From Azolla caroliniana (taxonomy: Eukaryota > Plantae > Polypodiophyta), in NCBI GenBank assembly GCA_043228905.1, contig JBHGNT010000003.1, positions 6,572,001-6,636,000 of the forward strand: DNA of 64,000 nt, written 5' to 3'. This document shows, one piece after another, positions 40,206-64,000 of the stretch (position 1 is its first letter; each line of letters begins with the position of its first letter). The notes beneath the pieces are model-generated. The model searched no databases. It saw nothing but the letters and a program-made list of their open reading frames with translations, and had not been told where the DNA came from. The translations under genes were made by a program, and so were the position numbers.

Positions 40206-40648
40206 TGTAAAAAGTAACGTGCGGAAGCAAGTATGAAGACCGAATAGAAGGAAGAAAACTCAGGTTTAATGGAGAGCTTGAGCTTACGCAGTATACGCGG
40301 GAGAGACAGAGAGAGAAAACACAAGAACTATATTCAACAACAGTACTCAATTTCTACTCACCACTTTATACATATGTGTGTTCAATGAACACTTTGTACA
40401 AGTCCTAGAAGGACTGACCGAAGTACTGACAGTACTTCAATGCTCATTAAGAGCTCCTACACTAACTCCCAAATATATTCATCACGGAATATCTTTCCTA
40501 ACGGCCTCCCGGTTTACGCACCGATCCGGCCCTCCTACGCATCGGTCTGCGTACCGGTTTACGCATTCAGCCTAACCGATCGGTCCCAACTGATCCGGTC
40601 CTCGGCTTCTTCAGCCGATCCGGCCAATGTTGAGCTTGTCTCTCAACA
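40206..40648 (-). repeat. 3' LTR of Copia-2
   Basis: Near-identical to 45508-45939; TG...CA termini. Confidence 0.95.
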
Positions 40649-43600
40649 CTCCCCCTCAAGCTCAACTTGAGGCTCTTCGGGATCTTCGGGCTCACAGCTC
40701 CGGTTCCTCCTGGCTTCAAGCCTCGCTCGCGCTCCACGACTTGTTCGACTCCGCGTGCTTCGACCCTTCCGGTCGGCTTGTCTGCTCATGTGGCCCTTTT
40801 CAGCTCTTCTGTTGTTGCGGTGTTGACACTTCTCCTGCTGCCTTTTCTTCCGCTTGGGCCTCGGTTGATTCAGCGTATCTGAATCAAACATCCGAATCAA
40901 CTCGGCTACCTCCGATCGGTTTTCGTTCTCGTCCGAGTTGGCTGTCTCCAACTTGTCTTCGATCTTCTCGCCCTCGATGGCGTCATCTTCCCCATGCGTG
41001 GTTGGCTTCGGCTCTCTCCTTCGGCTGCTCCCCTTCTGTCCGCTTCCAGACTTTTCCACGGGTCCGCCCTCGGCTTCTTCAGCCAATCCAAAGTCGAACT
41101 CGACAACCGAGTCAACCGACTCAGTGTCGCGGTGTCTGCTCCTTTCCTGATGCCTTGCTTGGTCGTTCGGGACTGTTCTCCCCCTCATGTTTGGCACGTC
41201 GTGGTGACGCAATCCGAGCGCACCTGAGAATTGCCGCAACTTGTCCAAACCAAGAGGCTTGGTGAAGATGTCGGTAGTCTGCCGATTCGTCGGAACGTAC
41301 TGAAGTTCGACTTCACCGGAAAGGACACGCTCACGGATGAAATGGTAGTGCACCTCAATGTGCTTGGTCCGTGCGTGGAAAACGAGGTTTTTCGCGAGTT
41401 GGATGCTGCTGAGGTTGTCGCAATAGATCGTCGTCGGATCTGACACCTCCTCTTGCAGGTCCTTGAGTAGCCGCTTCAACCATATGGCTTCGCATGTCGC
41501 GACAGCCGCTCCTCGGTACTCAGCTTCGGTGCTCGACAGTGCAACTGTCGGCTGCTTCTTACTGCTTCACGCGATCGCGGCACTCCCGAGGGAGAACGCG
41601 TATCTGGACGTGGATTGGCGATCGGCGGCGTTGCCAGCCCAATCAACATCGGTGTAGCCGACTAACTGCGCGGCTGCATAGGTCCGATATAGCAGTCCCC
41701 GGTCCTTAGTGCCGTTGACATACCAAAGTATGCGTAGCGCACACTAAAGGTGCTCCTCGGTAGGTCGCGCCATGAACTGACTGATCACTCCGATCGGATA
41801 ACTGAGGTCAGGTCGGGTGATGGTCAAGTATATGAGGCTTCCAACAATTTGTCGGAACCTCGTCGGGTCGCATACCTTTCCCGTATCGGGACGAAGCTTG
41901 ACGGTTCTGTCCAGAGGAGTCGAGACGGACTTATAGTCGGCCATCCCGAATTTGAAGTGCATACTCAGCACGTAATAACGTTGGTTGATCAATATGCCTT
42001 CGGGGGTACGGATCACTTCGATTCCGAGGAAGTAATGAAGGTCCACGCGGTCGATTTCACCTAGGTCGGCGCCGGTGATGACCAAGTCATCAACATATAG
42101 TAAAATACTAACCGGTCCGAGTCGACCTTTTCGGATGAACAAGGAAGAGTCCGATTTTGATGTGACGAAGCCCATCCGACGCAGTTGTTGTGTGATCTTC
42201 GCATTCCAGGCACGCGGGGCTTGCTTCAGTCCGTAAAGGGACTTCTTCAGTCGGCATACTGCCGAGGAGTTCGTTCCAGAGTGAAATCTGGGGGGTTGTA
42301 CCATGTACACCTGTTCCTCAAGGTCACCTTGCAGGAACACATTCTTTACATCCATCTGATGTAAGTGCCACCCCTTCACCGCAGCTACTGCGAGCAAAAC
42401 ACGGACGGTCGTCATTTTCGCGACCGGCGCAAATGTCTCATCGTAGTCGATGCCGTGTTTTTGCGCGTAGCCCTTTGCCACTAGCCGAGCCTTGTACCGG
42501 TTGACCGAGCCATCGGTGTTGTACTTGACCTTGTACACCCACCTACACCCAATCGGTTTTACCCCTCTTGGTGTGTCAACCAGGTCCCAGGTCTCGTTCT
42601 CCGCCAATGCGTGCATCTCTTCCTCCATCGTGGCACGCCAATTCGCGTCTTTAGCTGCTTCTGCGTAGCTCTCCAGCTCACGCACTTCCGCTACACGGGT
42701 CATGTACGCATAATGATGCGCCATGTACTCGTTGTATCCGAACCGCAAAACAGGATTCTTCTGGCGGGTAGATCGGCGTAATCTCACATTAGCCGATGTC
42801 GAGGGCTTCTCGGTCGACGCGGACTTCACCTTTAAAGACTCGTCACCGGTTCCCTCGGAGTCGGACTCGCGTCGGTCTGACTCGTTCCTATCCGTGCTGG
42901 AATCTGACACCTTCTTCTTCCCTTTCTCTTTGCGCGTCAGCCGTCTCCTCGGCTTCCTGCGCTGGGAGTGCACGGCCGAGTCTCCACTACTCGCCGGCTC
43001 TTCATCGGACTGATCATACCGACTCAATCGTCCAATCGGTCCACTTAAACGGAGTGAAATCGGACTCCCTTCGTGGGTCTCGATTTCAGGCTCATCCGGA
43101 GGCATCTCGGCCTCGCTGACCTCATCATCAAAGCTCGGATTGGAGTCGGGGTTCGGAGTCGGGGGCTGGTACCAGGACGCGAACTCGTCAAACACAACAT
43201 CGTGGCTAACACGCGCTTGTTTGGTGTGAGGGTTATAGCACTTATAACCCTTCTGCTCGTCCGAGTAACTGACCAAGATGCATTTCTCAGCCTTTGCGTC
43301 CAGTTTCCTCCTTTTCTCCTTCGGTACATGCACATACGCAATGCTACCGAACACCCTCAAGTGTCGCAAGTTCGGCTTCGTTCCGAAATATAGCTCGTGC
43401 GCCGACACTTTGTCTCCGATCCGGTTCTGGATGTATACCGCGGTCCTTACTACCTCGGCCCAATAGAACTTGAGCAAGCTCTTCTCCTCCAGCATTGCCC
43501 ATGCCGCTTCCACAACTGACCGATTCTTCCTCTCGGCCACGTCGTTCTGCTCCAGCATGTATCTACAACTGAATTCGTGCCGAATTCCCATTTGTTGTAG

Positions 43601-45507
43601 ATAACCGTTGAATTGACCAGAAAAGTACTCTTTCCCGCCATCCGACCGCAGGCACTTGATCTTTCATCCCGTTTCCATTTCCACGAACCCTTTGAGGTCC
43701 CGGAAACAGTCGAAGACTTCGCTCTTCCTCTCAATGAGGTAGATCCACGTGTGTCGCATGTGGTCGTCGATGAAGGAGACGAAATATCGGCTCCCGCCAA
43801 GACTAACATTTTGTGTCGGCCCCCATACATTGGAGTGTATAAGGTCAAGCTTGTTCCAGCTCCGGTTTCGCTCGTTGGGGAAAGGAAGTCGGTGTTGCTT
43901 CCCGAGTTGGCAGGCTTCACAAATTTGTGCCTTTCGGCCACTAAATTTGGGCAATCCGAACACTACGTGTTTCGATTGCAGATCTTAAAGCCATTGGTAG
44001 TTGACGTGGCCTATCCGCTTGTGCCACAAGTCGATGTCCGACTCGATTTTTGTCCCTTCACGAACATTGTGGTGCCGCCGTCAGTGGAGTCGAGGATGAA
44101 CATCCTCCCGTCTCTGCGCCCTTGCGCAATCACACGGCCTTCTTCCTCAATGAAGCACCCGAGGTGTGTAAACCGAACCTCCATCCCTTGGTCGACGATC
44201 TGTCCGACCGAGACCAAGTTCTTCATGATTGTCGGAACGTGCAACACGTTCATGAGTTTCCCTTTCTGCCCGACATGGCTAAGGGGAACTTCTCCGACAT
44301 TCGCGATCGGATGCGGAGTGTCGTCTCCAGTTGCGACTACTCCAGGTTGTATTGGTTTTTCAAGGTACGAGAACCACTCCTTATGGCTCGTCATGTGGTT
44401 TGACGCGCCGGAGTCTACGTACCACACCTCGTCCGATCTCGGGGTGGTCCGTTTCATTGAGTTTGCTTCGTGTCTCGTCACGAAGGTAGACCCTTCTCCA
44501 GCTCTCCCGGAGTCTTCGGCGTAGTGCAATCGCTGCCGATTTCCCTTGTCGGTATGTCCAAAGCCGTTTCCGGAACCGGTTCTCTCCGAATCGGCGCGCT
44601 TCTTCTAGCACTCACTTTCCCTGTGGCCTTTCTTGCCACAGTACCAGCACTCCGCGATGGCCTTCCCTTGCCAGTTCTCATCGCTTCGACTCCCCCTGTT
44701 TCCGGAGGGTCCGGAGTTGCTGTCGGCATCACTCCGGTGCCTTCTTCCTTGATCTCATCGGCCGCCTCCATTGCGCGCCGACTCGCCTCGTCCTCCACGT
44801 CCATGGGGCCTATCTCCCTCCGTGTACAGCAGCCTGTTGTCGATGTGCGTGCTTGTAGATGCACCCGCGTGGTTCTCCTCTACCAGGAGCATTGACTGTA
44901 AGTCGAAAAAGGACGGCGTATTCTCCCGGGTACACACAGCCGTTCAGAACGCTCCGAACTTCGACGCCAAACCTCTGAGACAGATCTGGACCATCTCGCT
45001 CTCCTCGATGTTCACCTCTATGGAGGCGAGGGAGTCGCAGATATCCTTGATCTTCGAGGTATAGTCCACCACCGACAAGTCACGTTGTCGTAGGTTGCTC
45101 AACTCCTGTCGGAGCTGAAGCTTCCTGGCCGTGGTGCTCGCGGCGAAAATCTTCTTCAGATTTTCCCACGCACCCTTCGGCATCTTTGCATCCCGAACAT
45201 AGCTCAATAGTTGTTCGCCCACACACGACGCGAAGCAGTATAATACCCTGCTCACCGATTGCTCCCACGACGGGAAGTCTCTATGTGTCGATTCGGGTGC
45301 CGCGTCATTAGCTCCTTCGACATAACTCCAGTAGCCGTGCCCGAGCAGGTACTGGTGCATCTTGTAGGACCAAGACGCGTAGTTGGTTCTGTCGAGCTTC
45401 TCTGTTGGAAGCGAGCTCGCCATGCCTCTATCCATCGTTCTTCTTGTTCTTCTTCGTCAAGCTGTGTCGGCTGCAGAGAGGTTCTCAACCCTGGCGCTTT
45501 GATACCA

Positions 45508-45939
45508 TGTAAAAAGTAATGTGCGGAAGCAAGTATGAAGACCGAACAGAAGGAAGAAAACTCAGGTTTAATGGAGAGCTTGAGCTTACGCAGTATACGC
45601 GGGAGAGACAGAGAGAGAAAACACAAGAACTATATTCAACAACAGTACTCAATCTCTACTCACCACTCTATACATATGTGTGTTCAATGAACACTTTGTA
45701 CAAGTCCTAGAAGGACTGACCGAAGTACTGACAGTACTTCAATGCTCATTAAGAGCTCCTACACTAACACCCAAATATATTCCTCACGGAATATCTTTCC
45801 TAACGGCCTCCCGGTTTACGCACCGATCCGGCCCTACCTACGCACCGGTTTACGCATTCGGCCTAACCGATCGGTCCCAACCGATCCGGTCCTCGGGTTC
45901 TTCAGCCGATCTGGCCAATGTTGAGCTTGTCTCTCAACA
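45508..45939 (-). repeat. 5' LTR of Copia-2
   Basis: Near-identical to 40206-40648; directly abuts the PBS. Confidence 0.95.
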
Positions 45940-48334
45940 GTTTCTAACTTCTTAAAGACTTGCGTTTAGAAGTCACTAGTAAATTTTGGATCTCGATCAC
46001 TCACGATATCCATCGGTAACCCATAAAAACGAAATAACTCGTCAACGAATTGGTAAGCCAATTCAGGAGCTGTTACCGTGGTTTTAGTAGCAATAAATCT
46101 AGCCATTTTAGTTAGTCGATCAACCACAACCCAGATGGCATCATGGCCTCTTTGGGTGCGAGGAAGGCTAACAATAAAATCCATGGATATACTTTCCCAC
46201 TTATTCTTGCGGCTTTAAGTCGCTCGGCTTTGTTAACCTGACATTGGTGACATTTAGTCACATAGCTATGTATGTCAAGACGCATCTTAGGCCAATAAAA
46301 TTGAGTGGAGATGAGAACGAGTGTACGATATATTCTAGGGTGCCCTACTGAGGGTGCATCATGGCATTCAAAAAGAATCCTCTTTTTGACCTCGGGTAAA
46401 TCTGGAACACAAACCTTCCCATTACGGTAGAGCAGACCGTTAGCAATGTGGAAGTATTCCTTCGAGGATGTGGTGGTGTTTGTTCCAGACTCAACTCTTG
46501 CCCAGTATTTTGCGAAATGACTGTCATCAAGATACTTTCCTCGATGGTGATCAAAAAAATATGATGATATTTCATTGAAGCTAAGCATGTTAACTTCACG
46601 GATGCGACTTAGTGCATCAACGACAGTGTTCATGGAACCTTTACGATATCATATGGAAAAATCAAAGTCCTGGATGAGATCAGCCCATCGTGCCTTACGA
46701 CCTTTCAGGTCTTGTTGGTCACAAAAATATTTCAAGGACTCGTGGTCCGTAGTTACCACAAAGCGATTTCCATAAAGATAATGGCGCCATGTTTTGAGCA
46801 CATGTATAATTGCAAATAATTCCTTTTCTTGCACGGTATACCGACATTGAGCAGAATCAAGTTTCTTACTCTCGAATGCTATTGGTTTACCATCTTGATA
46901 TAAGACAGCGCCTATAGCATAATCGCTTGCATCGGTTTCAACCTCAAAAGGTTTTGAAGGATCGGGTAAAAGAAGTGAAGGAGCGTTGCACACCAAGTCC
47001 TTCAGTTCCTTAAAGGCTAGGTCTAGTGTAGAATTCCAGACAATAGGTTTTGTAGACTTACGCGTTTGACCTTTTAGAAGATCAGTAAACGGGGTTGTCA
47101 ATTGGGAGTAATTACGAAGGGATTTTCGCAAAAACCTGACAAAACCAAGGAATGATCGAACTTCTCGAATATTCCGAAGAGTGGGTCAAAGCTTGATTCG
47201 CGAGAAGGATCAATTTCAACTCCTTGTTCGGTTATGATATGTCCAAGATAAGTAATTGATTTCTTGAAGAACTCACATTTTGAGATCTTCGCATAAAACT
47301 TTTTGTCACGCAATGTTTGTAAAACAAAGCGGACATGTTTAGCATGTTCTTGTAATGTACGACTATAAACTAAAATATCATCCAAGAAAATAACGACAAA
47401 TTTTCCAAGTTGTTCTCGGAAAATGTCCTTCATTTCTTGTTAAAATGTAGTCGGAGCATTGGTCAAACCAAAAGGCATAACCAAAAACTCATAATGGCCA
47501 TAGCGCGTACGAAATGCCGTTTTAGGAACATCGTCCTCACTTATACGTATTTGATGGTAGCCAATACGGAAATCAAGTTTCGTAAAATACCGAGCTCCCT
47601 GGAGACGGTCAATTAGATCATCAGCTCGGGGCAATGGATACGAATTCTTGATCGTCACTTTATTCAAGCGTCGGTAATTAATACACATACGCCAGGTACA
47701 ATATCTATACGATGGTCTATATTACGTTTAGGAGGTAACCCATCTAGTAGTTCACTCGGAAAAACATCACGAAAATCATTTAAGATTTCATCAAGTTGTT
47801 GTTGTTCAAAATATGTTAATTGAACCGAGACATTATCGATATTGTAAACGTGAATGTCTGGATCAAGTACACAATAAAATAGAGTAGAACAAGACAACTC
47901 AGATATTGATGGAGAGGAAACAATCGAGAGGGATTGTTTTTTTACACATTGAATAAAATGAGTATAATCGTTCAGTACAAAAGTTATTGAATGATGAACC
48001 CAATCAATAGATAAAGAAGAGTTTTTATTATAGAACCAGGGATAACCCAGTATTACATCAGTGGTACAAAGATTCATTTCATGGAAGTCTACTTCCTCTA
48101 TATAAGTATCAATAGAAATTCCCAATGAATGAATTGTCTCGTTGATGTATTGTACTCTTCCATCAGCCAAGTGCACCATATAGGTGTGATCACTTACGGT
48201 GGGTTGGATTCCCCATATCTGAACTAAATGATCATTCACAAAGTTGTGTGAGTTTCCCGAATCAAACAAAAATTGTACGAGAGATCCATTGATATACCCG
48301 TTTGCACGTAGTAAATCATTGGGACCCAATACAT

Positions 48335-48800
48335 AGTGAGAGAAAGAACATTGACAATTACTTGGGTGGATTAATTAGATCGTTGTTAACTATTACAACA
48401 TTAGTGTTGTTTTGCCTCACAACTAGAGAAAATAAACCTTCACTTTTAGAGAACTTTGATAGTTTTATCAAGGAGTTTCAAGCGTGTTTTGGAGACATTG
48501 ATGGCATAAGGACAATAATCAACGAGATTTAGATATTGTAATAAGGAGTTACTTGCATTGGAATACAAAATAGTTTTTTTCCTTTTTGCATAAGATATCC
48601 CTTGGGACGTGGACGCATTAGTGGAACAATGGTTACAAGAACTTTATAATTATATGAAAGACCCTTTCTTGCATCCCATGAAGACCCTAAGTCCCATACA
48701 GAGGCAATTAATTTAGTTGTGCGATGTGATAACCACTTATTTGAATGATGTTCCAAGTGCCAACATATGGCATGCATTGAATTAGAGGAGATAAATCCCT
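48335..48800 (+). mobile_element. Degenerate Gypsy gag fragment, opposite orientation to the chromovirus
   Basis: PSLLENFDSFIKEFQACFGD resembles the Retrotrans_gag core; many stops. Confidence 0.5.
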
Positions 48801-49326
48801 CGATGGTAGTAGCTACACCTTCAAGGCCTATGCTAGAATCCATCTCCATTTCTATAGATAGTCTACTCTAGTCACTACAACACAAGTGAACCTTACCATC
48901 ACGTTTTTTTAAAGTTAAACAAGATATTGCATCTCCCCAAAATTAGTTTATCTTAACCACACATTGAGTCACCTATTAAATTTATGCATCAAATTTACAC
49001 TACAATACAATGTTAATCATCAAGTCAAGAAGCGCAAATACTTGACTACATCTAATGCACCCTTCATATGTGCATCATCGACCTTTACTTGTTCACGAGT
49101 AAGAGCCCACTTTATAACTTCATGTACTCCATCATGTTCACATTTCCCATGGCCAAAACACAAAAAATTTCATGTATCTCCAATTAAATTTCACAAGGGT
49201 ATCTCCCTACATAATAGAATGGTCGTTTCACTATGAATTGTAATGTAGCTATATTAGACCAAATTTTGATCTAGCAACCATTTTCAATGTAATTTGTAAC
49301 AATGTTAACAATTCGTAAACAAACAG

Positions 49327-50883
49327 TGTTGTGAAGGTTTTCGGCAATGGTGTGAAAATTGTGAGGAATGTCCACAATCGAGTGTGGTTCTTCAACAATG
49401 ATAGTGAAGATACTATTTTAGATAAGTTTAATATCTTGGTACAAAAAGATGGAGATCTTGAAGAGCTTTTCAATGCACTTTGCTACATAACAAACGGTCA
49501 ATTAAGTGTGCAGTTATGTGGGTATGAAGTTACGAAAAAACAAAAAAACATATGAGTTGTCCCACATAGATAGGACAAACAAGGATCCTAAAATATATAA
49601 AGCAAAGCCAAAAGCTATTATTTTGTGTCTATGTGTGGAGCATAGAGAGTTTAAGGTGACTTGAACTAAGTTAATCAAATGAATGGGTGTGGCCTAACTA
49701 CTTGCAAAGGTTTTGGCCAACCAAAATTGGACCGGCGGCATCCGGTGACCAGCCGGTGACAAAATCGTTTTGATGATATATCTTATTCTTCAAATCTAAA
49801 GTCAAGAGTTCAATCTTAATCTCAATCTCTCTCTCTCAATCTATCTTAAATCCTTTCTCACTAAAGCTAACACGTGTACTTCGAGTCCTTCCGGTCTAGA
49901 ACCCCGGCGGTTCCGCCTCATGATATGCACATAGTGACGAATCTTCACGACATAATTAAGTGGTGAACCCGACGTGAAAGAGGCGGTAGGAAGGATCAAG
50001 TCAAGGATCGACCGATACTTGGAGATGGCCTCCTCAAGCAATCAAGCGAGAGAGTTCAAAAGGATGATGTTGATCGTCGAACAAATGATGTGATCTTGAG
50101 ACAATGATGCGACCGGCATCCGGCATCCGGCATCCGGCGACCAGCGGTAGCATCCAGTGACCGGCCGGTGACGAAATCAGCTCAAGATGTGGACCGAACC
50201 GGATCGAGATGCGGCGATCGACCGGTGACGGAACCGGCTAGGGATGCGGACCAAACGGGTGCAAATCAGATGGATTGCGGTGCATGGTGTCTTAAAGATA
50301 TTTGGTGTAATTACAAGACCAAAAGCCTAATAGTATTTTGTGCTTTAAAAAGGGATGTATGCAAGACTTGAACATTGCACCTCCAAGTTGAGAGTCTATA
50401 AGCTTACCATTAAGCCAAATCATTTCTTTAAGGATATATTTTTTATCACTATAGTTTTACATGTAATTCTCATACATGAGAGCTTAGATAATGACATGGC
50501 AAGTATGCATTGCATGCATTCTGTGCATGCCTTGCACCCTTACATGCACCATATGCATGGGGGCATCTATAAAAGAGGGGCTAGGTATTAATCAGGAAAG
50601 CTTTGTACTTTATATCAAAATTAATATTAAGAAGAAAATTTGTTATCCTTTTGATGATATATCTTATTCTTCAAATCTAAAGTCAAGAGTTCAATCTTAA
50701 TCTCTCGTTCTATTTCAATCGTTCTGAATCTATTTCAAAATTGGAATCTTAATCTCAATCTCTCTCTCTCAATCTATCTTAAATCCTTTCTCGCTAAAGC
50801 TAGTGCGTACTTCGAGTCATTCCGGTCCAGAACCCTGGCGGTTCCGCCTCACGATCCACACATAGTGACGGATCTTCACAACA
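49327..50883 (+). mobile_element. Internally deleted tRNA-Trp-primed Gypsy element (element E)
   Basis: 10-bp terminal IR TGTTGTGAAG...CTTCACAACA. Flanks ACAG (49323-49326) and ACGG (50884-50887). First LTR ends CTTCACGACA at 49952; PBS 49961-49978. LTR 3' part repeated at ~50650-50883. Confidence 0.8.
49961..49978 (+). promoter_or_regulatory. Primer-binding site, tRNA-Trp (element E)
   Basis: TGGTGAACCCGACGTGAA, complement of the plant tRNA-Trp 3' end ...TTCACGTCGGGTTCACCA. Confidence 0.88.
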
Positions 50884-51159
50884 ACGGTTTGGGTTTGCAT
50901 GTATTGATCACCAATGTATGGATTGAATGACTTGAAATGATTAGCTTGCCCTAAATAAATGAAGTTGGGCATAATGAGTTTTTCTAGAGATACTATAAAA
51001 AGTGAGGACAATTCTCTGGGAGTGAGAAACTTCCTTACCAAATCATTTGTGTTTACACACCTTTCCATTATAAGTTATCTTGATTTTTTGAATCAATTTA
51101 ATAAGGATTGAAATTGCACTACACACTACACAATTATTTTCAATACTATATAAATATAT

Positions 51160-51835
51160 TGTTGGACCACATTCTAAACATATGCCCATGATACGCTTGG
51201 AATGGTAGAAGTCAACCTCAAACCCTCATGGACATGTGTGGTGTTCCTAAATATTGTCAACTCAAAACCAGCCCCAAAATGAGTCACGAAGGAATCAAGG
51301 AGCCCCAAAACGAGTTGGGCTAGACCCACGAAGTTCCAAATAGAGTCAGCATGAGCATAACGCAAGAAGGGTTTGGGTTGGGACACTCCCATGGATCCAC
51401 TAGTCCCAACTTAAGTTGGGACCCAAGGAGGGAACCGGTCCCCGTTCCAATCTCAGTCCTAGTCCCGGTTCCTAAGAAGGGGCACCACTTTTGGGTTGGG
51501 ACTACCGGTCCCAATCTGAGTTGGGACCTTGGAAATACCTAGTCCCATACCTCGCTACAAAAACAACTATCTTGGTGTAATGGTCCTTGGCATAACGACT
51601 TTTCACGTAACGGCCTAGGAAGCTCAAAAGCCACAATTGGGGTAACCCAACAACCACACCTTGACCTATATATACAGGAGCTTCTCCTCAATTTCCTATA
51701 TATAGAGTCTCTCCTCTCATTCTCCTTAATCTTAGTTAGCTCTATGGAGTTTGTAATAAAACCTTATTATAGTTATGATTAAGTGTTAATGATAATTAAT
51801 CTTAGTTTTGATTTGATATCTCTTGTCCCCACCGT
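51160..51835 (+). mobile_element. Probable LTR-like fragment (host of element A), with palindromic GGGAC/GTCCC motifs
   Basis: Starts TGTTGG after an AT-rich flank; palindromes such as TCCCAACTTAAGTTGGGA (~51404-51421); TATA-like ctatatata. Partner end not in window. Confidence 0.35.
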
Positions 51836-52342
51836 TGTCGCGAAGAAAACCGTCCCTAGGCGGAAACCGAGTTCAGCATGTGTAAATCGGCCCTTACACG
51901 CGAGCACACTTTTCGTTGTATGGTAAGTAGGTAGGTACAAGTCGGATGAGGTGAAATCCTAGGTAGCACGCATTTAATAGGGAGAGAATCGAGTTGTATC
52001 TCTGTTCGAAAGGACAAAGAATTAATATGATGTAACGGATGATAACGGCCTCCCTCCTTGGGCTATAAAAGAGAGGGAGAGGAATGAGAGGAGGTATTGC
52101 GGGTTAGAGAGGACGAAGTGCTGCTGGACTGGGACCGAGCCCTTCTCCTCTATCTCTCTCCATAGCCATTTTTGCGTAGGTTTTCGGGAGGCTGACTTTG
52201 CTCCATGGAACGCCTATGTGCTTCCGGTAGAGTCTCCATCTCACTCTTCTGTGTGAGTGAGTGAACATGCGTCGGTGTTCGCCTTGCCGGCCTGTTAGTT
52301 GTAATCGTCTCGATATTTTTTTATTTTTTTATATACATACGT

Positions 52343-53170
52343 TGTCGTGCCTCTCGGCGCCAAATCGTTACGTGAGTCGGGTGGGAACCGTTGGGGTTTT
52401 GGACTAGGAGAAAGGAGATCGTGAGATAGAGATCAATTATGAGTAGATAGCAAAGAGAAACATAAGAAACTCGTGAATCACACGAGTATACTATATTAAT
52501 TGGTACTTAGGTTGTTAAGAGAGAAGTAGATGCATAAATCGTGAATCCCACGAATAATTTTTATATTGATCAATACTTAATCCAAAATAACCAACCCTTA
52601 TACATCTTTCTCTCCTCCTTATATAAGGACGGGGGAGGCTAAGCATAGCTTCTTGCTTTTCTAAAGTGTTCATGCCCTCTAAATGTGCATGCTTTACTTT
52701 TCCCACTACGATTTCCTAAATTTAGCATTCATGCCCGCTAGATGTGCATGCGTAATTTTATTAGTGTACATATAAAGTTTTCACGCATTCTAAAAATGCA
52801 TGACTTACCCTTTAATAAAGGTAGGCGAAAATAAAGGTTCTATACGTATTAAATCTATATTTGAAACACTCAGAATAAGTTAGTATAATGGTAAGGCTAG
52901 AGTTTGTCTGCCTGGAGGTGTAGGGTTTGAATCCTGCCCTATGCATGTAACAAAAATTTTAATGTTTCTTTTATTTACAATTGTGTCTCTTCATCCCGTA
53001 AGAGACTCTCACTGGCCTTCTTCATCCGGCTCTTCCTTATCGATTCCTCCTTGCCGGTTTGCCGATTCCTCCTTGTTGGTTCCTCTTCGTCCTGTTCTCA
53101 CCGGGTATTTCATTCTCTATCCGGATGGACAAAATGCAATTTCCTCGTAGTGTGTAAATTACACTATGCA
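52343..53170 (-). repeat. 3' LTR of element B
   Basis: Direct repeat of 59629-60435 (offset 7286) with few substitutions and one ~22-bp indel. Confidence 0.95.
52873..52945 (+). other. tRNA-like / Pol III A-box-B-box module in U3 of element B LTR (second copy 60159-60231)
   Basis: TAGTATAATGG (A box) ... GGTTTGAATCC (B box) at tRNA-like spacing; partial acceptor and T stems. Confidence 0.55.
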
Positions 53171-56100
53171 ACTCACCCCCTCTAAACCCGCACATCCTCC
53201 GGTATGTGCCGAAGTTCCCGATGTTCTATATTCGCCTCCATCTATATCGCTCTCCGAATCTTCCCTTATGTCAACTACGAGTTGAAGTCCACTTTCTTCG
53301 TTATCCGCATCACGGCGATCTTTGTTCGGTTGCTCCTCATTGTCGGTCTCGTCTATGGCTACATAAGATTCGTTGTTAGTCCGCTTCTTGAAGATCTTCA
53401 CCCGTTTCCCTGCTATAGACACTCGTAGTATCGTTCCATCCAACTCACTTAGTCAGTAAGTTCCGTTGTCGAAAACTTTCCAAACCTCATATGGGCCGAA
53501 CCACCTTTTTGTGAGCTTCCATACCGTTGTATGTTGATGATCCAAACTACTGTCATAGACAATCACCCAATCTCCTTCTTCAATCTTCCGTGGTCGTAGT
53601 CGGTGCTTGGTGTTGAACCGGCTTTTGTTCCGGAGTCACGCTTCTTGTTGTCGGCGTGACGCTTCCGCTACATCTTCCGGTCTTCCCTCCAGTTGTCGTA
53701 TCCGGACCGCTAGTAGTTCTTCCCGGGTCATCTCTTCCTTCCACGATAGCATTGTCCATGTCGCGATTGTGGTTTCCGTTGGCATTACCGGTGCTTGTCC
53801 GATCATAAGTTCTGCCGGCATATAACCGGTTACGGAGCTATGCGTCGTCCGATCTGCCCATAGTGCATACGGGAGCATCTACAGCCAATCTATCACCCTT
53901 CTGTCGCATGCTTTGGCAAGTGCTTTGACGATCGGACTATGTCCTCGCTTGACCTTCCCGTTGGCTTTTGGATTGTATGTCGTTGTTAGTGTTAACCGAA
54001 CTCCATGTTTGGCGAAGAATCCCCTAGCTTTATCAGAGTCAAGTTCTCCCTGATCTGCAATCACTTGTCCTACGCACCCGTACCTACAAAACACTTCTTC
54101 CAAAAGAAATTGACATACCGCAAAACACGTTTTTCTTCGTAGCGCCCGACCTTCTACTTGATTTGTGAGATCTTCCCGAGCTAACACCAAGTACTTCTTT
54201 TGTCCGATCCCGGTTGGCATGGCTACAATGTCGACCATCCATTTGAAGTTTATTGTCGGTGAGAATGTCGGATGTAACTCATCTCGGTGTCGAACTCCAG
54301 AGTAGATTTGACACTTCTCGCAGCTTTCCGTGAACTCCGCGACATCTTTGTACATATTCTTCCACTAATATCTTTGCTTGATCTTCCCAAATGTTGCCCA
54401 TGTTCCCCGATGTCCAGCCCAATCAGATTCGTGAAATTCGGATATTACCTGGTTTCGTTGCTCTTTTGTCCCGACTACTCGAAGTGGTATGCCACCCGGT
54501 CTTTTCGGCTCCCTCCATAAAAATCCATTTTTCAAGAAGAACTTTCGGACTTGCCATTTCTTACTTCGGATCTCGACTCTCTTCTCTTTATTGTCCGATG
54601 ATTCCTTGATTTCTCGTAGCATTTTCCCGATCAACAAGCTTTCTCCCTCATATTCTTCTTCCCGGAATTATTGTATTATGTCCACCCGACATATGTGCTC
54701 CAAAGCAAAGTAGTCTTTGGAAACTTCTTCATTATCGGATTTGCTTATGTCATCTCCGAACCGTGCCCTTGATAGCATATCCGCTACAGCGTTGTCTCTT
54801 CCGGAGATGTGTCTTACCTCCGGATTAAGTGACTTAACATATGCAATCCATCTTAGCATAGCCACATCCGGTATCGTGCAACACCGCATCATCGCGAGTA
54901 TCGGAAGACAATCCGTTTCGATCACTACTTCGGCTCTGATCAAGTAATCTCAATCCGATTTGATTGCCGACACGACTCCCCATAATTCTCTTTTAACTTG
55001 TGCATATCCACGTTGCCTTTCGTTGAGAACCTTTGCTCTGAATCGGATCGGATATCGCGAACCTTCCAAATCGGCTTGATTGATGACCCATCCGATTCTG
55101 GTTGGACTTGTGTCAACTGTTACTATGATCGGTTGGTCATAGTTTGGCTTCTTTAGTGCTTCTGCCCTCCGCAGTGATTTCTTGAGCTTCTTCACGACTT
55201 TGGTATGCTCCAGTTTCCATTCAAACTTTTTGCCCTTCTGCAAAAAGTGATAGAGTGGGTCCGCTATATGTGCATAGTGCGGAATCCATATGTGGTAGAA
55301 TGCACATGCTCCAAGAAACCTTCGAACTTCGGATTGTGACTCACATACTTCTTTCATAGCTTGAATCGCATCAATCTTGGTTGGTGACGGTCTTCGGCCG
55401 TAGGGCCCACATAGATGTCCGACTACCAATATTTCTTCTTGTCCGAATGTCGATTTCTCTCCGGAAAGTGTTAGATGCACATCTTCTAACTTCCGTAACA
55501 CTTTCTCACAATCCCGAATATGGTTGACTACAAACCTTCGGCATCCCCGTTCATCCATAGCTTCATCTTTTTCTTCCACCGCACACCCTTTCATCGGAAT
55601 GTCATCTAGGAACGACATCGTTATCTCCGGTATGCAATCCCCTAGCACCTTGTTCATCGCATTCACCATATGTGCGACTGAGTTCGTCGTGCCTTGTGGT
55701 AGCGTACACATCCGGACTAATCCTATCGGTGTCCACATGGTAGTGATGTCTCAGCTCTTCACAGCTAGTTGGAATTGGTCATATCCGGAGTATAGGTCTC
55801 CAATGGAGTATATCGCGCGACCGGCAAATGCTTCCGCAAATTCGTCCACTATTGGACCGACTCTGGAGTTCCGGATCATGATGTTGTTCACCGGTTGCAA
55901 ATCTTGAATAAATCAGAGTGACCCATTCTTCTTCGGAACCGTAAACCATCGATTTGAGTACGGAGCATTTGATGGCTCTAGAATCCCCATCGCCACCTTC
56001 TCCTTGAGCAAGTCGATGATTTTCGGAATATGCGCCCGTGGCACCAGAATCGGCTTCAGGTTCCACGGCACTTGGTCAATCGTGAAGATCACCATCGGCT

Positions 56101-56706
56101 CCACTATCTTCGGATCAGCGCATCCTATTTCTTTCGATGTAAATGCAAATGCTCTCCCATGTCGCTCTAGCATCCCAAGGAATCGTTCTTCTTCATTCTT
56201 TAATAGGAACCCACCTCCACCGATCCGAAGTTTCTTCCGGGTCTCATCCGTGAAGGCATGTCTGATATCCATGGACTTCCGAAGTGTCGGATCCCCCGAG
56301 ACTTCTTTCCTCTTTTGTTCGCTATCTACGGGTAACGGTCCCGCGGCCGGTTTCACTTTCTTCTCCACGGTCTTGTATTTCGTACTTACCATTGCTTCTT
56401 CTTTGCGGAGCGCATCCGGCCCCATTTTCATAATGATCTCGTACATCTCGACCGACTCCACCGGAATTACCCGGTTTCCCTGGCTTGTATCTTCCGCGAG
56501 CTCTTCAAGCCGTTGTAGTGTGCTCCCATAGAACACTTCTTCGACTATTCCCACGATTTCTTCGTCTTCTTTTATTATTGATGCCGACCGTAACTTATCC
56601 TCCACTTTTCGGTATTCTTTCTTCATTCCTCCGGTTACGGCCATGTACGTGTATGCCCCATCCGGACCGATTCGTACTTGTTTTGCTCCGAGAGTCTTCT
56701 TCCTAT

Positions 56707-56770
56707 GTGGGGTATCAGGGCTTCTCGGACTATCACTTCCCCACTCCGCAACAATCCGATCTAAAAATCC
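56707..56770 (-). promoter_or_regulatory. Putative -1 ribosomal frameshift signal of element B (slippery GGATTTT + pseudoknot)
   Basis: gag-PR ends ...MDF-TAG. The -1 frame is open (FLDRIVAEWGSDSP...) into pol. Stem TCGGATTGTTGC/GTGATAGTCCGA; loop GTGGGG pairs with downstream CCCCAC. Confidence 0.75.
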
Positions 56771-57898
56771 ATCTTCGTTTGGGACAAGAGCTCCCTCTTG
56801 TTCCTTTCATGATTTGCTGGCACCGTTAGGAATTGGACGGATTTCCCTCCGTTTTGGCTCTGAATTCGCGCAAAAGCCGCACCGCAATCGAGCACCTTCG
56901 TCTCCATCCGTGATGCCGTGATAAAGGGTTGCCCGAGGATCATGGAGTGTGAGACCTCATCTTGCACGAAGAAATTTTGGTCTATCTCCACATCCCCGAT
57001 CTTCACCATCACATCCGGACAAGCCGCAAATAGTTCTTTCGTTGCTGCCCAGATCTTCCACCCATGATTCGTGTTAATAGGCCACTTACCCTTCCGGGAG
57101 AACTCCTTGGACATCAAGTTGATCTCCGATCCGTGATCAATCAAGGCTAGCACGGGTTCTTTGATGTTACCGATTCGGACCGGAGTCTTCGTAGTTGCGC
57201 GTGCCCAGTGTGGCTTTGTGTAGTGAGAATTCGGTATTTCGTCCTCCAATTCGGTGTCATTCATTAGAATGGTATTTGCATTCACCCTTGGAGCGTTCTC
57301 CTCCGTACTTTGCCTTTTTCTCTTCACGAGATCCACAAGGAGATCGTGGAACTCCTTCGCTATTCCGAGTAATTCCCGAAGCAAAAAATCTACCCAGCTA
57401 TCAAGGATTCTCTCCTCAAACACTTTTTTCAAGTCCGTTTGTTGTTCGATGTCCGAGGCGAGCTTGAATGCCGGAATCATCTTTTCTTTTCCCTTACCTC
57501 CGGAGTTCCAGCTTTCCGGTGTCTTCGATGGACCGGCTGCCTTATTCGTGCGCCATCGCTTCTCATCTACATACACTTCATGCAATTGGCATAAAGCAAA
57601 CACGCTATTCTTATCCACGGGGCACTCCCATCCAGTAGCTTTACAGAGGCCTTCCGTAGTGCTTCGGATCTCATTAGAGTCGGTTTTCTTGGGGTTTTCT
57701 AGCATATCCGGCCAAAAAGACGCCTTTGCTCCCGACGACTCACCCACACTTATTCCCGCGGTTGTCGCATAATTACCTTTTGCCGCTATTTCCTCCTCTA
57801 GAACCTTCTTCATGCCGCCTTTCCGGAAGTTTGGTCGGAGTGGCTTCCGAGAGTCCATCAAATGAATCTGATTTCCCTCATAGTAGATAAGATCCCGT

Positions 57899-58690
57899 TG
57901 TCGAGATATTACGCAAGTGCGTGTGGAAACGAGGCGGGACCGCGGGGGTCTCGAACCAAAGAGCAAGCGAGGGAGGAGAAAGAGAGAGAACCTGCTACGC
58001 AGGACCGGGGATACACAGGGACACGGCCCTTCAGCACGGAGAACGCGAACAGACACTGACACAGACAGATGCGAATGACTAAATATGTATATTAACAAAA
58101 TGGCTAACACGACTACAACCCTCGATGGGGCACAGGTTGGCTACAACCGAACAGGCCGGCGAACAGATGTCGATGCTTGTTCGCTTCGACGCACAAAGGG
58201 GGAGCAGGTCGGAGGTGCTGCCGGAAGCACTCGGGCGTTCCTCGAAACAGCGCGAGCCTCCTCGGAACCCTGCACAGAAAAGCTATGGAGCTCAAGAAGG
58301 AATGAAACAGAGAGAGAAGCGTCCAGAAACGGTCCAGCAGCACTTCGTCCTCTCTGCGCGAGATGCCTACAACAGCTCTTTCCTGCTCCTTATATAGGCC
58401 GACGAGCAGGCCGTCATGTCAGCTTTATTCCCTGTCCCTTTTGGACAGGGATCCGCCCCGTTCTTCACGCATCCGCGTAGTTACACCGCCGACTCGTACA
58501 GTTCCTTAGCTCGCGCGCGCGACCGAAAAGACTGTTCGCGCGGTCTTTGTCTCCACTTGTGTTAGGGCCCGTTCCTGCCGATTATCCTCCTAATTCGCTT
58601 CTATGTACAACTTGGAGCGTGCGCGCGTGAAGAACCGGTTCCCACGCCTTGGTGCGCCGATTCCGCCTATGGACGGTTTTCTTCACGACA
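57899..58690 (-). mobile_element. Solo LTR of an element-A-related family, inserted in the gag of element B
   Basis: 4-bp TSD CCGT (57895-57898, 58691-58694). Both ends align with the reverse complement of the A LTR ends (tgtcg..ttacgca..gtgcgtg..gaacgaggcgggacc; ggacggttttcttcacgaca). Confidence 0.9.
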
Positions 58691-59606
58691 CCGTCATAAC
58701 ACCTCCTTGTGCTCGTCGCAATCCCTCCGATCGTGTTCGGTGCTATCACACCATATACATCGACGGTCCATATACTTGGAGTTTGTGGGACGGTCTCCCA
58801 ACTTCTTCACCATCGCAATTTTCAGATTCTCCATATCTTTCAGCAACTGCTCCACCGTGGTTGCGTCAATCCCCTTCTCGGTCGTAGTCTCTCGAGCCCG
58901 CAGTTGATGGTCCTTCACTCCGGATCTCGGTTTCGGAATCGGTTCTGAAACCCTCTTCTCTTCGTTAGCAAGACATTGCCCCCTCTTCGTGTATCACACG
59001 ACGATATCCCCCACGCTTTCCAATATTTCGGTGAGGCCGCTTTCGGTAGTCATGTCCTCTAGAAGCACTCCAAGATCCTTCCGGTCTCAGACGTCTACGG
59101 CTCGTAAGAACATGATAACTTTGTCCGGTGCGAGGATAGCTTGATCTCTCGCATACAACCCCCCGAACCGACTTTCGAATGACGAAAACACTTCCGAATC
59201 GAGGACCTTCAGCCCCTTACCTGGCGTTTCCACCCAATCTTCGAATCCCCTCCGCGTTGCTTTGGAGGAGTCCTCGATGGCGAACGTGGTCTTTAACGCT
59301 TCTTCAAATGCTTCCCACGTCGGATTTTGTTGTTGTAACCCGTGGATACTCCCTTGAAGCTCGTCAGTCGCCACCCAGTTGAAGGATGTCACTTGCAGTC
59401 CTTCCGAAATCCGGCACCGGAGCATCTCTGCCTTGTAGTCCTGCAAATATCGCGACACATCCTTACCATTGAATTGCTCGTTGCGTTGCACGAGCCACTC
59501 TACTACTGCTCAAATCTCCGACATCGCGCGTTGTTCTTGTAGCATCCACTCAAACATCGCCATCATATTGTTAGCTTGTTGATTCTCCATCTCCTTGCCA
59601 CCCGTC

Positions 59607-59624
59607 TTCACGTCGGGTTCACCA
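59607..59624 (-). promoter_or_regulatory. Primer-binding site, tRNA-Trp (element B)
   Basis: Minus strand TGGTGAACCCGACGTGAA, 4 nt after the 5' LTR. Confidence 0.9.
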
Positions 59625-59628
59625 CTTG

Positions 59629-60435
59629 TGTCGTGCCTCTCGGCGCCAGATCGTTACGTGAGTCGGGTGGGAACCGCTGGGGTTTTGGACTAGGAGAAAG
59701 GAGATCGTGAGATAGAGATCAATTATGAGTAGATAGCAAAGAGAAAGATAAGAAACTCGTGAATCACACGAGTATACTATATTAATTGGTACTTAGGTTC
59801 TTAAGACAGAAGTAGATGCATAAATCGTGAATCCCACGAATAATTTTTATATTGATCAATACTTAATCCAAAATAACCAACCCTTATACATCTTTCTCTC
59901 CTCCTTATATAAGGATGGGAGAGGCTAAGCATAGCTTCTTGCTTTTCTAAAGTGTTCATGCCCTCTAAATGTGCATGCTTTACTTTTCCCACTACGATTT
60001 CCTAAATTTAGCATTCATGCCCGCTAGATGTGCATGCGCAATTTTATTAGTGTACATATAAAGTTTTCACGCATTCTAAAAATGCATGACTTACCTTTTA
60101 ATAAAGGTAGGCGAAAATAAAGGTTTTATACGTATTAAATCTATATTTGAAACACTCAGAATAAGTTAGTATAATGGTAAGGCTAGAGTTTGTCTGCCTG
60201 GAGGTGTAGGGTTTGAATCCTGCCCTATGCACGTAACAAAAATTTTAATGTTTCTTTTATTTACAATTGTGTCTCTTCATCTCGTAAGAGACTCTCACCG
60301 TCCTTCTTCATCCGGCTCTTCCTTGCCGATTCCTCCTTGACGGTTCCTCTTCGTCCTATTCTCACCGGGTATTTCATTCTCTATCCGGATGGACAAAATG
60401 CAATTTCCTCGTAGTGTGTAAATTACACTACGACA
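59629..60435 (-). repeat. 5' LTR of element B
   Basis: TGTCGT...ACGACA termini; followed by the TSD ACGT. Confidence 0.95.
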
Positions 60436-60633
60436 ACGTGTTCATATACTCGGGCTTCGAGTAGTCTCGTTTCGCTGTGTTGTCGAACTGTGATTCCTGT
60501 GTGCTCCCGTGTCTATGCGTGTGCAAGTGCGTCTGTTGCCTTTCCGCTCTCTTCCTTCTCATCTATTTCTCGGTCCAAGACCCCGGTGGTCCCGCCTCGT
60601 TCCCCACGCACGTGCGTAACAATGCGACATCTT

Positions 60634-60651
60634 TGGTGAACCCGACGTGAA
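60634..60651 (+). promoter_or_regulatory. Primer-binding site, tRNA-Trp (element A)
   Basis: TGGTGAACCCGACGTGAA, 4 nt after the LTR end at 60629. Confidence 0.9.
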
Positions 60652-62800
60652 TAGGCGGCAGAGGAATAGAAAGATGAGGGGGTTGGATCTCGTGGAAGCC
60701 ATGGCTTCGGCTGTGGATCGGATAGTGAGTGCGCGTGAAGGCGCAGACACCCTCGATAGGGCTATTGAAGCGGTCGTCAGCACGATAGGCCGGTTCGGTG
60801 GGAAGGACGCCACGAGCTATTTGGAGGCCTACCGGGCCGAGTGGGTAATGAGAGACATTCCAGAAGAAAGGCGACTGACCGAATTCCCTCGGGTGGCGAT
60901 GTCGGGCATCCATGCGGAGGTGCTCGAGGTACAGGCTGAGAGCCGGACCTGGGAAGAGTTTGAAGTTCGGCTCCTCGAAAAATACGGGCTTGATGACGCG
61001 CTCCGGCTCTCGAAACGGGACTTCATGGAATGGGTAGAGACCCCCGAAAAGGGGAGAAACGCGTTGGTGCTCCTCTGGGAGTTTGAAGAACGCTTCGCGC
61101 GACTTTCGACGCTCAACCGGACCGTACTAGACACAAGTCGTGTCCTACTGTTCGTTAAGTCGGTGGATGCGAGGGACCGGGAGCAAGTGGGTCTCTTGTT
61201 GGAGACTGATGATGGGCTGACGGTCAACTGGGCCGGGGTGAAGAGGGTATGTGGACGTTTCGACAAACAGCGAGAGTGGGTCGATAAAGGATCAACAGGG
61301 GCGGGCTTTGTAGCAGCAAGGAAACTCAAGCCGACCCCACCAGCGCAAAGGGAAGAGACCCGAGACTGGCTCGAGACCGGATCGACTTCGACCGGCATGG
61401 TCAAATGTTCGTCCGGAGGAGCAGCTCTAGAGGAGCTGACTAGGATGGTAAAGGACCTCCAGATTGCGCAGGCACGGAGGGACGGCGACGAACAGGCCCG
61501 TGACCGAAGGCCTTTGGCTGGAAACCGGTGTTTGTGGTGCGACGCGGTCGGCCACGTCCGGAAGGACTGCGGGGACTTCGCCGAGGCAATGAGAGCCAAC
61601 GTGGTGTACCTATGGAATGGTCGGGTGCACGCTAGCGAGACCCGAAGGGCCTTGGACCTGAATGTCGGACGAGGGGGTATGAAACGGCTGATGGAAGAAG
61701 CGGTGGCTCGCCACGCGGAGACCGTCCACTACTCGGCGTCGGTTGGGATCCAGGTCGGAGGTGGTGAGGCCCGGAAGACGAACGAAGCCAGATTCTGGCC
61801 GTTGATGCTGGAAGGCCTCGTCGGTGCACGGCTAAGGAAAGAAGAAGCGGACCGCGCGGAAAAACGGGTCCGGGAGGTAACCGGGTGGAGCGACCCGATC
61901 GAAGAGAAGACGGGCTTCGTTGAAGCCGCATGCCAGAACTACGAGGCTCTAGTGGAAGACAAGCGAGCAAGTAAAACCGGAGGGGCCAGGCCCTCACAAC
62001 GGTACAAGACCCGATTCGGTCAAAGGCAGAATGAGGACGGTGCGACCGGTGCACTGAATAAAGCCAAGAAGGCCAGATACCGGTTGAGCACGGAAATCGA
62101 AAGGACCACAGACCTATGAAAGGTCCTGGAGGAACGTATCCTCAACAGCAAAGTGGAGTTGTCGCTGAGGGAAGACCTCGGGATCGCCAAGAAGGAGTTC
62201 CACGACTCCATCGTAGACTTGGTGAAGAGGAAGAGGTTGTCGACAGAGCCAGAGCCGGAGAAGCCGGTAGAAGTGCGAACGACGCACATAGAAGACATGG
62301 CGCTAGAAGACGAGTTGGCGGAGAGCCACTATTCGAGGCCGCACTAGGCCAGAGCGACCACGGAGACCCCTATTAAGATCGGGGATGTCCAGGAGTCGGT
62401 GGTGGCATTGGTGGACCACAGTTCAGAAATCAACTTGATGTCCATGGACTTCTACAAAAAGGGGAAATGGCCGATCAACACCAAACACGGATGGAAAATA
62501 CAGGCCGATCAACACCAAACACCAAACACGGCTAGAACTACATGGAGCTTGCCCGAACGTACAGGTGAAAATCGGCGATGTCGAGATCGACCAGCACTTC
62601 TTCATGCAGGAGACGTCCTCACATCCGGTTATACTAGGAGAACCATACATCACGGCGGCACGGATGGAGACCAAGGTGTTGGACAACGGTTCGGCCTATG
62701 CAAGAGTCAAGGGCCAGGACGGCTGTCACTCGGTCCAGTTCCTGACGGTGCGACCAAACCATGAGCGTAACCGCGAGACCCTCGGTGGCGAAACCCGAGG

Positions 62801-62866
62801 GGATTTTTAGAGAGGGCTATCAAGGCGTGGGGCCGCGATAGTCCGAACACCCCAGAAAAAACCCAC
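62801..62866 (+). promoter_or_regulatory. Putative -1 ribosomal frameshift signal of element A (slippery GGATTTT + pseudoknot)
   Basis: gag-PR ends ...GDF-TAG (62810). The -1 frame is open (FLERAIKAWGRDSP...) through RT. Stem GGGCTATC (62814-62821)/GATAGTCC (62837-62844); loop GTGGGG can pair with CCCCA (62850-62854) or CCCAC (62862-62866). Confidence 0.75.
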
Positions 62867-64000
62867 AAATGTATAGTACGGAAGAAGACCTGTACCATAG
62901 GTAGGAAATTTTGGTTCTCCGACAACGGAGGTTGTACTATGGCTGGCGTCAGCGGCCGGGAAAGGAAGCGAGCGGAGGAGCGGCTCAGGGGATGCAGAGT
63001 CCTCTCCCCCGACGAAGAGATCAGCGGCGCCGTGGAGGCAGTCTCTTTTGACGACACCTTGGGCGAGTTGCGAAAGGTGATCGGTGAAGACCTTAGAGAA
63101 GACCGGACCGTTTCGGTAGGATCCATGGGAATGTATGAAGTCATCGCGGACTTCGGGGAAAGGATTAGGTCGGATCGGACGGCCCGTGTGGATACAAAGT
63201 ACAAGACTATGGACCGGAAGGTGAGGCCAATCGCAACACCCTTGCCAGAGGGCAGCGAGGAGCGGATAAAAGGGGTCGCGTCGGACCCGAGTTTACGGAA
63301 TCCGGTTGGCATAGGGCACCGGTTCACCGACATAACGCTACGGGAGCTCAAGGTTGGTGGGGGTGGCTTCCTACTACCGACGGAGGAGAACAGGTTTCGG
63401 AGAATGCTCGGAAGGCATGGGAAAGCCTTCGCGTTCTCGCCGGAGGAGATCGGGTGTGTGGACCCGACGGTCGTCGAACCGATGGTGATCTTCACGGTAC
63501 CGCATGTGTCGTGGAATCTCAAACCGATTCTGGTGGCGAGAGCTCACATCCCGAAGTTGATGGAGCTTCTTAAGCAAAAGGTGGAGATGGGCATCCTCGA
63601 ACCGTCGGGTGCCCCGTATTCGAATCGGTGGTTTACGGTGCCAAAGAAGAACGGCACGCTACGCTTCATTCAGGACCTGCAACCAGTCAACAAGGTGACC
63701 ATCCGTAATGCAGGAATCGGACTGACCATAGACGAGTTCCCAGAGGCCTTCGCTGGAAGGTCGATCTATTCGGTTGGTGACTTATACTCGGGGTACGACC
63801 AGTTCCAGCTAGCCATGGAAAGCAGGGATATCACGACGATGCGAACTCCTCTCGACCTAGTACGGATGTGTACCCTACCACAAGGCGGGACAAATTTGGT
63901 GGCGCATATGGTGAACGCAATGAACAAGGTGCTAAGGGACTGCATCCCAGACATCACCATGCCATTCTTGGACGACATCCCGATAAAGGGGTGTCCGGTG

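What the first reader, a model, noticed from the sequence alone, without database searches (positions are those of the whole stretch)
49323..60439. Four Trp-primed Gypsy insertions all use a 4-bp, CpG-centred target site (MCGK)
Seen: element B TSD ACGT/ACGT; solo LTR TSD CCGT/CCGT; element E flanks ACAG/ACGG (consistent with ACGG after CpG deamination); element A left flank CCGT. All fit the palindromic consensus [AC]CG[GT]. The fifth base does not match for B or the solo LTR, so the TSD is 4 bp, unlike the 5-bp TSD of the neighbouring Copia. Inference: the integrase prefers CpG-centred sites. The surrounding host DNA is visibly CpG-poor while young TEs are CpG-rich, so such a preference would steer insertions into other TEs without a chromodomain (none is seen in B) and would explain the nesting. 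Only four sites support this.
Basis: partly seen in the sequence, partly recalled or inferred. Interest (0 to 1): 0.8.

Follow-up and report, generated by a model that had tools for sequence, protein, structure and literature searches.

The report
Fern retrotransposons insert at CG sites
These jumping genes sit at four-base sites with CG in the middle, a real preference that is already published for the plant Gypsy lineage Phygy, to which they likely belong, so the finding is mostly ordinary.

Summary
Element B (52343-60435) has a 4-bp duplication ACGT/ACGT. The solo LTR (57899-58690) has CCGT/CCGT, and other copies of B's family lack it and skip exactly LTR plus 4 bases. A's left flank is CCGT. 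E's ACAG/ACGG pair is the weak case, because E is a deleted remnant. Independent data confirm the preference: 14 of 15 flank-side LTR junctions in related metagenome contigs have a central CG against a 5.5% background, and run contigs show about two dozen further ACG flanks in each of two runs. It is not new. Neumann et al. 2019 list Phygy (n=186) as 4-bp TSD, NCGN, tRNA-Trp primer, no extra domain; Phygy is also reported from ferns, and the host gene here is fern-like. Steering into young elements is plausible arithmetic (4-5 times more CpG) but unproven: two of the four window insertions sit in CpG-poor DNA, and a 5-bp Copia is nested too. Phygy membership rests on features; no reference sequence was available for a tree.

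The parts
49323..49326 (+). Left flank of E, ACAG (would be a CpG-decayed ACGG; inferred)
49327..50883 (+). Element E, doubly deleted remnant: shortened 5' LTR 49327-49952, primer site at 49961, short internal stub, 3' half of a second LTR about 50371-50883
   Evidence: mapped on L094, LTR about 1150 bp
50884..50887 (+). Right flank of E, ACGG
51832..51835 (+). Left flank of A, CCGT
51836..60629 (+). 5' LTR of element A (51836-52342 and 60436-60629), split by B
52339..52342 (+). B target duplication, left copy ACGT
52343..60435 (-). Element B: LTRs 52343-53169 and 59629-60435 (19 substitutions in 805 aligned bases), primer site next to 59629, broken gag-PR-RT-RH-INT, no chromodomain, no second RNase H; 7297 bp without the solo LTR
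57895..57898 (+). Solo-LTR target duplication, left copy CCGT
57899..58690 (-). Solo LTR (792 bp) inside B's gag; shares its first 30 bases (93%) with A's LTR
58691..58694 (+). Solo-LTR target duplication, right copy CCGT
60436..60439 (+). B target duplication, right copy ACGT
60634..64000 (+). Element A primer site and broken gag-PR-RT, running off the window; same lineage as B (51% and 83% protein identity over shared stretches)
40206..45939 (-). Control: Copia element with a 5-bp duplication GTTTC, nested in the integrase of an older, unrelated Gypsy element

Best explanation
These are chromodomain-less Ty3/Gypsy retrotransposons of a likely fern host, likely of the Phygy lineage, and they sit at 4-base duplicated sites with a central CG, likely because their integrase itself reads that CG. 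Shown: 4-bp duplications, central CG in 14 of 15 independent external junctions, gag-PR-RT-RH-INT order, no chromodomain, no second RNase H. Inferred: the integrase cuts the two target strands 4 bases apart, bends the DNA at the central pyrimidine-purine step as retroviral integrases with 4-bp duplications do, and adds base-specific contacts, since the other flexible steps (TA, CA, TG), commoner in this AT-rich DNA, were not seen. The outer positions appear to disfavour T first and A last (VCGB, post hoc). Because CpG is 4-5 times denser in young elements than in old host DNA, the preference would bias insertions towards young elements as a side effect, without excluding CpG-poor DNA.
For: Window junctions and the empty site of the solo LTR in 4 of 4 runs. 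14 of 15 external flank junctions with central CG against 5.5% background, P 3e-17. At E's 3' end, 24 (X1) and 23 (X2) contigs match ACG and then depart, against 23 and 21 that depart at once, where 0.008 to 1 is expected; the second group's majority letters are also CCG. Phygy is published as 4 bp (100%), NCGN, tRNA-Trp 81%, no extra domain, n=186 (PMC6317226). Phygy is reported in ferns (PMC13477047) and a liverwort (PMC12885004). The host NSN1 gene is 72% identical to a fern protein, against 54-63% for the 10 other named plants compared. Flexible YR centres for short duplications: PMC4422553 abstract.
Against: No Phygy reference sequence was retrieved (no Physcomitrium name among the 65 and the 120 of 300 hits listed), so clade membership was not tested by a tree. 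The Trp identity of the primer site is recalled, not shown by a call (searches gave nothing). B at 7297 bp is below the published range 7656-9968. One external junction (L049:828) lacks CG. The 15 junctions come from few assemblies, and none is from B's own family. B's empty site could not be aligned. No integrase assay.
Confidence: 0.85

Rival explanations
1. The integrase, or a host partner, reads methylated CpG, so the CG motif is a way to home in on silenced, element-rich DNA without a chromodomain.
For: All 14 CG-bearing external sites and the window's sites are potential methylation targets; 6 of 14 external flanks resemble transposable elements; 2 of 4 window insertions are nested in related elements; Phygy-into-Tcn1 nests are common in P. 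patens (PMC6911290 passage).
Against: No methylation data were seen. E and A lie in CpG-poor DNA and 5 of 14 external flanks have at most 20 CG/kb. The Drosophila ZAM integrase binds its CG-rich target sequence directly in vitro (PMC2527525 abstract), so CG preference can be an intrinsic property of an integrase.
Confidence: 0.1
2. The preference is only for DNA that bends easily at a pyrimidine-purine step, and CG stands out by chance or by sampling.
For: Retroviral integrases with short duplications favour flexible YR centres.
Against: 0 of 15 external junctions have TA, CA or TG in the centre, although these steps are commoner than CG in this DNA; the only CA centre seen is E's left flank, opposite an ACGG.
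Confidence: 0.03
3. The CG belongs to the element's own end (a misplaced LTR boundary or an assembly artefact), not to the target.
For: B's ACGT is palindromic, so alone it could be an inverted extension; external junctions come from collapsed short-read contigs, and the two ends of L091 do not match each other.
Against: The solo LTR's CCGT is a direct repeat and stands once in empty-site contigs; inner LTR junctions next to the primer site and the purine tract lack it; the outer bases vary among junctions.
Confidence: 0.02

Closest known systems
Phygy, non-chromovirus Ty3/Gypsy clade (Neumann et al. 2019, PMC6317226; REXdb)
   Same: 4-bp duplication with NCGN motif, no chromodomain, no second RNase H, no extra ORF, polyprotein filling the internal region, non-seed-plant host; primer site read as tRNA-Trp (recalled identity).
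   Different: Defined from Physcomitrium patens; here a fern-like host (Phygy in ferns is mentioned in PMC13477047). B is 7.3 kb against 7.66-9.97 kb. My sample suggests the narrower VCGB.
TatI (OTA/Tat clade, club-mosses; PMC6317226)
   Same: 4-bp duplication (100%, n=4) and tRNA-Trp primer (75%).
   Different: TatI has an extra RNase H between protease and RT in 100% of elements; none was found in B, A or their relatives. No motif is listed for TatI.
ZAM (Drosophila LTR retroelement, PMC2527525)
   Same: An LTR-element integrase with a CG-rich target preference that the authors ascribe to the enzyme.
   Different: Insect element with a longer CGCGCg consensus; relatedness to these elements not tested; works like it, not a member.
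Retroviral integrases with 4-bp duplications (PFV, MLV; PMC4422553)
   Same: Short stagger with a pyrimidine-purine step at the centre.
   Different: Their preference is described as weakly conserved palindromes; here CG is nearly fixed.

Membership tests
Phygy | Falls in the Phygy clade in RT/RH/INT trees (the primary criterion) | not testable with these tools
   No Phygy reference sequence was returned; named relatives are Riccia sorocarpa and Adiantum nelumboides proteins (60-63% over RT-RH).
Phygy | Gypsy domain order GAG-PROT-RT-RH-INT filling the internal region, no extra ORF | tested here: met
   the integrase frame ends next to the purine tract and 3' LTR
Phygy | No chromodomain | tested here: met
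   No Chromo hit at E up to 0.1 in B's integrase C-terminus or in P0002, P0020, P0039, nor at E up to 1 in six further relatives
Phygy | No additional RNase H (aRH) | tested here: met
   The PR-RT spacer of B has 0 Pfam hits at E up to 1; weak RVT_3 hits in 2 of 9 relatives overlap the ordinary RH domain
Phygy | 4-bp target duplication with NCGN | tested here: met
Phygy | tRNA-Trp primer-binding site | tested here: inconclusive
   The same primer site follows the LTR in A, B, E and in 65 of 121 fetched loci; its identity as Trp is recalled, and no tRNA-Trp gene was retrieved
Phygy | Length 7656-9968 bp (descriptive; the source calls size of little weight for classification) | tested here: inconclusive
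   B is 7297 bp without the solo LTR and is broken; the E-family contig L091 spans 7859 bp between LTR ends
TatI | aRH between protease and RT | tested here: not met
Tcn1 chromovirus | Chromodomain, 5-bp duplication, self-priming | tested here: not met
   B's RH is only 28% identical to that of the neighbouring older Gypsy
Selgy | tRNA-Ala primer and 4.4-6.7 kb length, variable 4-bp duplication | tested here: not met
   B is 7.3 kb with a fixed CG centre; the primer identity rests on recall

The most novel reading that the evidence does not exclude
The Phygy integrase reads a VCGB site (T disfavoured before and A after the CG) and recognises the CpG in its methylated form, giving non-seed-plant retrotransposons a chromodomain-free route into silenced, element-rich DNA.
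Probability: 0.1. Interest if true: 0.65.

Novelty: already known. Interest (0 to 1): 0.15.

Why it matters
The preference itself is in print: Phygy is named as the one plant LTR lineage with a target motif, NCGN. What this adds is small: confirmation in a fern-like host across at least two LTR families, and a possible narrowing to VCGB (14 of 14, post hoc). If the integrase reads CG directly, it is a rare sequence-selective plant integrase and a handle on how a 4-bp-stagger intasome picks bases. If it reads methylated CG, it would be a new targeting route, but nothing here shows that.

Tried and rejected
No whole genome is held, so the genome-wide logo and A's right flank could not be done. 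A primer-site scan of viral contigs gave 31 loci with no tRNA gene and no retroelement protein match; a second scan gave 0. Of the 121 metagenome loci, 56 lacked the longer primer site and were dropped, and L050 was dropped as a duplicate of L051, leaving 64. One search's pairwise boundary method also called inner LTR positions, so it was replaced by a rule that needs a match to a primer-side or purine-tract-side terminus. The first contig lay over 11.7 kb showed no LTR-end flanks among the rows kept. At A's left end the 12 loose contigs of X1 were dominated by the purine tract and were uninformative. B's empty site in A-type LTRs could not be aligned, because relatives are too diverged at that AT-rich spot. 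The in-silico frame check was off by two bases and was redone by arithmetic. My first guess of a moss host was overturned. The Atlas search gave DUF4100 (Streptophyta) and fungal protease clusters, with no lineage name. Paper searches for DUF4100 (0 papers) and for the primer motif (10 of 21 listed, all unrelated) gave nothing; a search on CpG insertion preference listed 14 papers, none on this lineage by title or abstract start; NCGN with retrotransposon listed 3 papers, only Neumann 2019 relevant. Earlier scan notes: none on this motif; 6 notes on other LTR elements of this genome did not bear on it. MCGK rejected as consensus (8 of 14; no better than VCGB, P 0.32).
Full report
Verdict. The 4-bp, CG-centred target site is real, holds outside the window, and is already published for the Phygy lineage.

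Anatomy. The region is a stack of LTR elements. E (49327-50883, plus) is a doubly deleted remnant: mapped on L094 it keeps the first 430 and about the last 140 bases of a roughly 1150-bp LTR, a primer site, a short stub and the 3' half of a second LTR. A starts at 51836 and runs off the window; its 5' LTR is split by B. B (52343-60435, minus) has LTRs with 19 substitutions in 805 bases and a broken gag-PR-RT-RH-INT. A 792-bp solo LTR (57899-58690, minus) sits in B's gag. A, B and E carry the same primer site after a CGACA LTR end; that it matches tRNA-Trp is from recall, as no call returned such a tRNA.

Check of the four sites. B: ACGT on both sides. Solo LTR: CCGT on both sides, a direct repeat. 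A: CCGT on the left only. E: ACAG and ACGG. In 4 of 4 runs, contigs join 57894 to 58691, skipping 796 bases with 4 letters fitting either side, which is the empty site with one CCGT (these runs are at most 3 samples). Removing 796 bases brings the gag frames into register. The neighbouring Copia (40206-45939) has a 5-bp GTTTC duplication. So two duplications are shown, one flank is shown and E's pair is inferred.

Test outside the window, metagenome loci. A scan for LTR end plus primer site returned 121 loci of about 450 estimated. 56 lacked the longer primer site and one was a duplicate, leaving 64. With termini defined only by primer-side or purine-tract-side copies, one search found 98 termini: 67 primer-side, 10 purine-tract-side and 21 flank-side, of which 6 are in the window and 15 external. 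14 of the 15 have a central CG against a background of 5.5% (P 3e-17). The exception, L049:828, repeats the spacer letters that precede the primer site and is probably a rearranged inner junction; it is kept in the count. Read towards the LTR, the 14 are CCGT x5, ACGT x3, ACGC x3 less none, and one each of GCGC, CCGG, CCGC and GCGT, as listed (CCGT at L037, L087, L092, L104; ACGT at L051, L091, L107; ACGC at L056, L069, L105; GCGC L032; CCGG L044; CCGC L091; GCGT L099; that is 4+3+3+4 = 14, with CCGT four times). MCGK fits 8 of 14. None begins with T or ends with A: VCGB fits 14 of 14, where 47% of background CG sites fit (P 3e-5, post hoc), and MCGK is no better than VCGB (P 0.32). Limits: these contigs come from six short-read assemblies, each junction shows one flank only, they belong to the A/solo-like and E-like families, and none is from B's family.

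Test outside the window, run contigs. At E's 3' end (window flank ACGG), 24 contigs of X1 and 23 of X2 match through ACG and then leave, with unrelated tails (agreement 0.37). 23 and 21 contigs leave at once; their majority letters start CCG although this group includes primer-side contigs. Random flanks would give 0.008 of the first kind per one of the second. Caveats: 127 rows were not shown, and the tool's clipping rule is unknown. A's left end was uninformative.

What it is. Neumann et al. 2019 (PMC6317226; I saw passages, section 13 and supplementary file 3) state that Phygy elements, alone among the plant lineages surveyed, have an insertion preference for NCGN. Their table gives 186 elements, 4 bp (100%), tRNA-Trp 81%, no extra domain, 7656-9968 bp. 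B has the Gypsy order, no chromodomain and no second RNase H, which excludes Tcn1 and TatI, the other Trp-primed 4-bp clade in that table. The host's NSN1 gene is 72% identical to an Adiantum protein and 54-63% to the 10 other named plant proteins compared, so the host is likely a fern. A passage of PMC13477047 says ferns contain Phygy and Tcn1, and passages of PMC12885004 report Phygy in a liverwort. Passages of PMC6911290 report 4-bp duplications as commonest in Phygy, GC-rich centres in 4-bp duplications, and Phygy-into-Tcn1 nests in P. patens. Passages of PMC7466625, PMC8282616, PMC9033089 and PMC13469084 added nothing on target sites. No Phygy reference sequence was returned, so membership rests on features, not on a tree. 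The element table of PMC6317226 (Additional file 1), which I did not see, may already show the VCGB bias.

How it likely works. Shown: a 4-base stagger and a nearly fixed central CG. Inferred: the integrase bends the target at the central pyrimidine-purine step, as described for retroviral integrases with short duplications (PMC4422553, abstract only), and adds base-specific contacts, because none of the 15 external junctions has TA, CA or TG in the centre. ZAM is a precedent for a CG-rich target ascribed to an LTR-element integrase itself (PMC2527525, abstract only).

The steering idea. CpG is 16.7 per kb in 1-32000 and 63-82 per kb in the young elements, so a CG requirement would by arithmetic favour young elements 4-5 times per base. 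B and the solo LTR are nested in such DNA, and 6 of 14 external flanks resemble transposable elements. Against a strong effect: E and A lie in DNA with 13.9 CG per kb, 5 of 14 external flanks have at most 20 per kb, and the 5-bp Copia is itself nested in an older Gypsy. Short-read assembly favours unique flanks and old flanks lose CpG with time, so these counts cannot settle the point. Methylation dependence was not testable.

Novelty. Already known. A paper search for NCGN with retrotransposon listed only Neumann 2019 as relevant, and I found no mechanistic follow-up in the searches run, which cover open-licence papers only. The small additions are the fern-side confirmation and the tentative VCGB.

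Noticed in passing
window 8693-12465 (+): Spliced host gene for the nucleolar GTPase NSN1/GNL3L; closest named match is a fern protein.
   Followed up: yes
window 16248-16319 (-): tRNA-Gln(TTG) gene, next to an inverted repeat (15837-15964 with 16098-16224) and a palindrome at 16384-16451.
   Followed up: no
window 32293-37300 (+) and 40206-45939 (-): Two related Copia elements, about 75% alike, in opposite orientation; the second is complete, with LTRs differing at 10 of 431 bases.
   Followed up: partly
window about 39376-48900 (-): Older broken Gypsy element with a Tf2-type SH3 integrase end, split by the Copia; no chromodomain hit in the short fragments tested, and no matching 5' LTR found.
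   Followed up: partly
window 1141-1587, 2565-2800, 7763-8190, 21409-21894, 26617-27486, 28052-28283: Tandem or direct repeats in the host-like part.
   Followed up: no
window 56761-58140 (-): The gag-protease region carries DUF4100; the nearest Atlas clusters after a streptophyte one are mostly basidiomycete, hinting at fungal relatives of this lineage.
   Followed up: no
L051:969 and 7487; L105:1889: L051 holds two primer sites, and L105 shows an A-type LTR inserted in an A-type gag at ACGC: nesting among these families occurs outside the window too.
   Followed up: partly
window 50957-51800: The CpG-poor spacer between E and A has diverged look-alikes elsewhere in the runs, so it may be an old low-copy repeat, not unique host DNA.
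   Followed up: no
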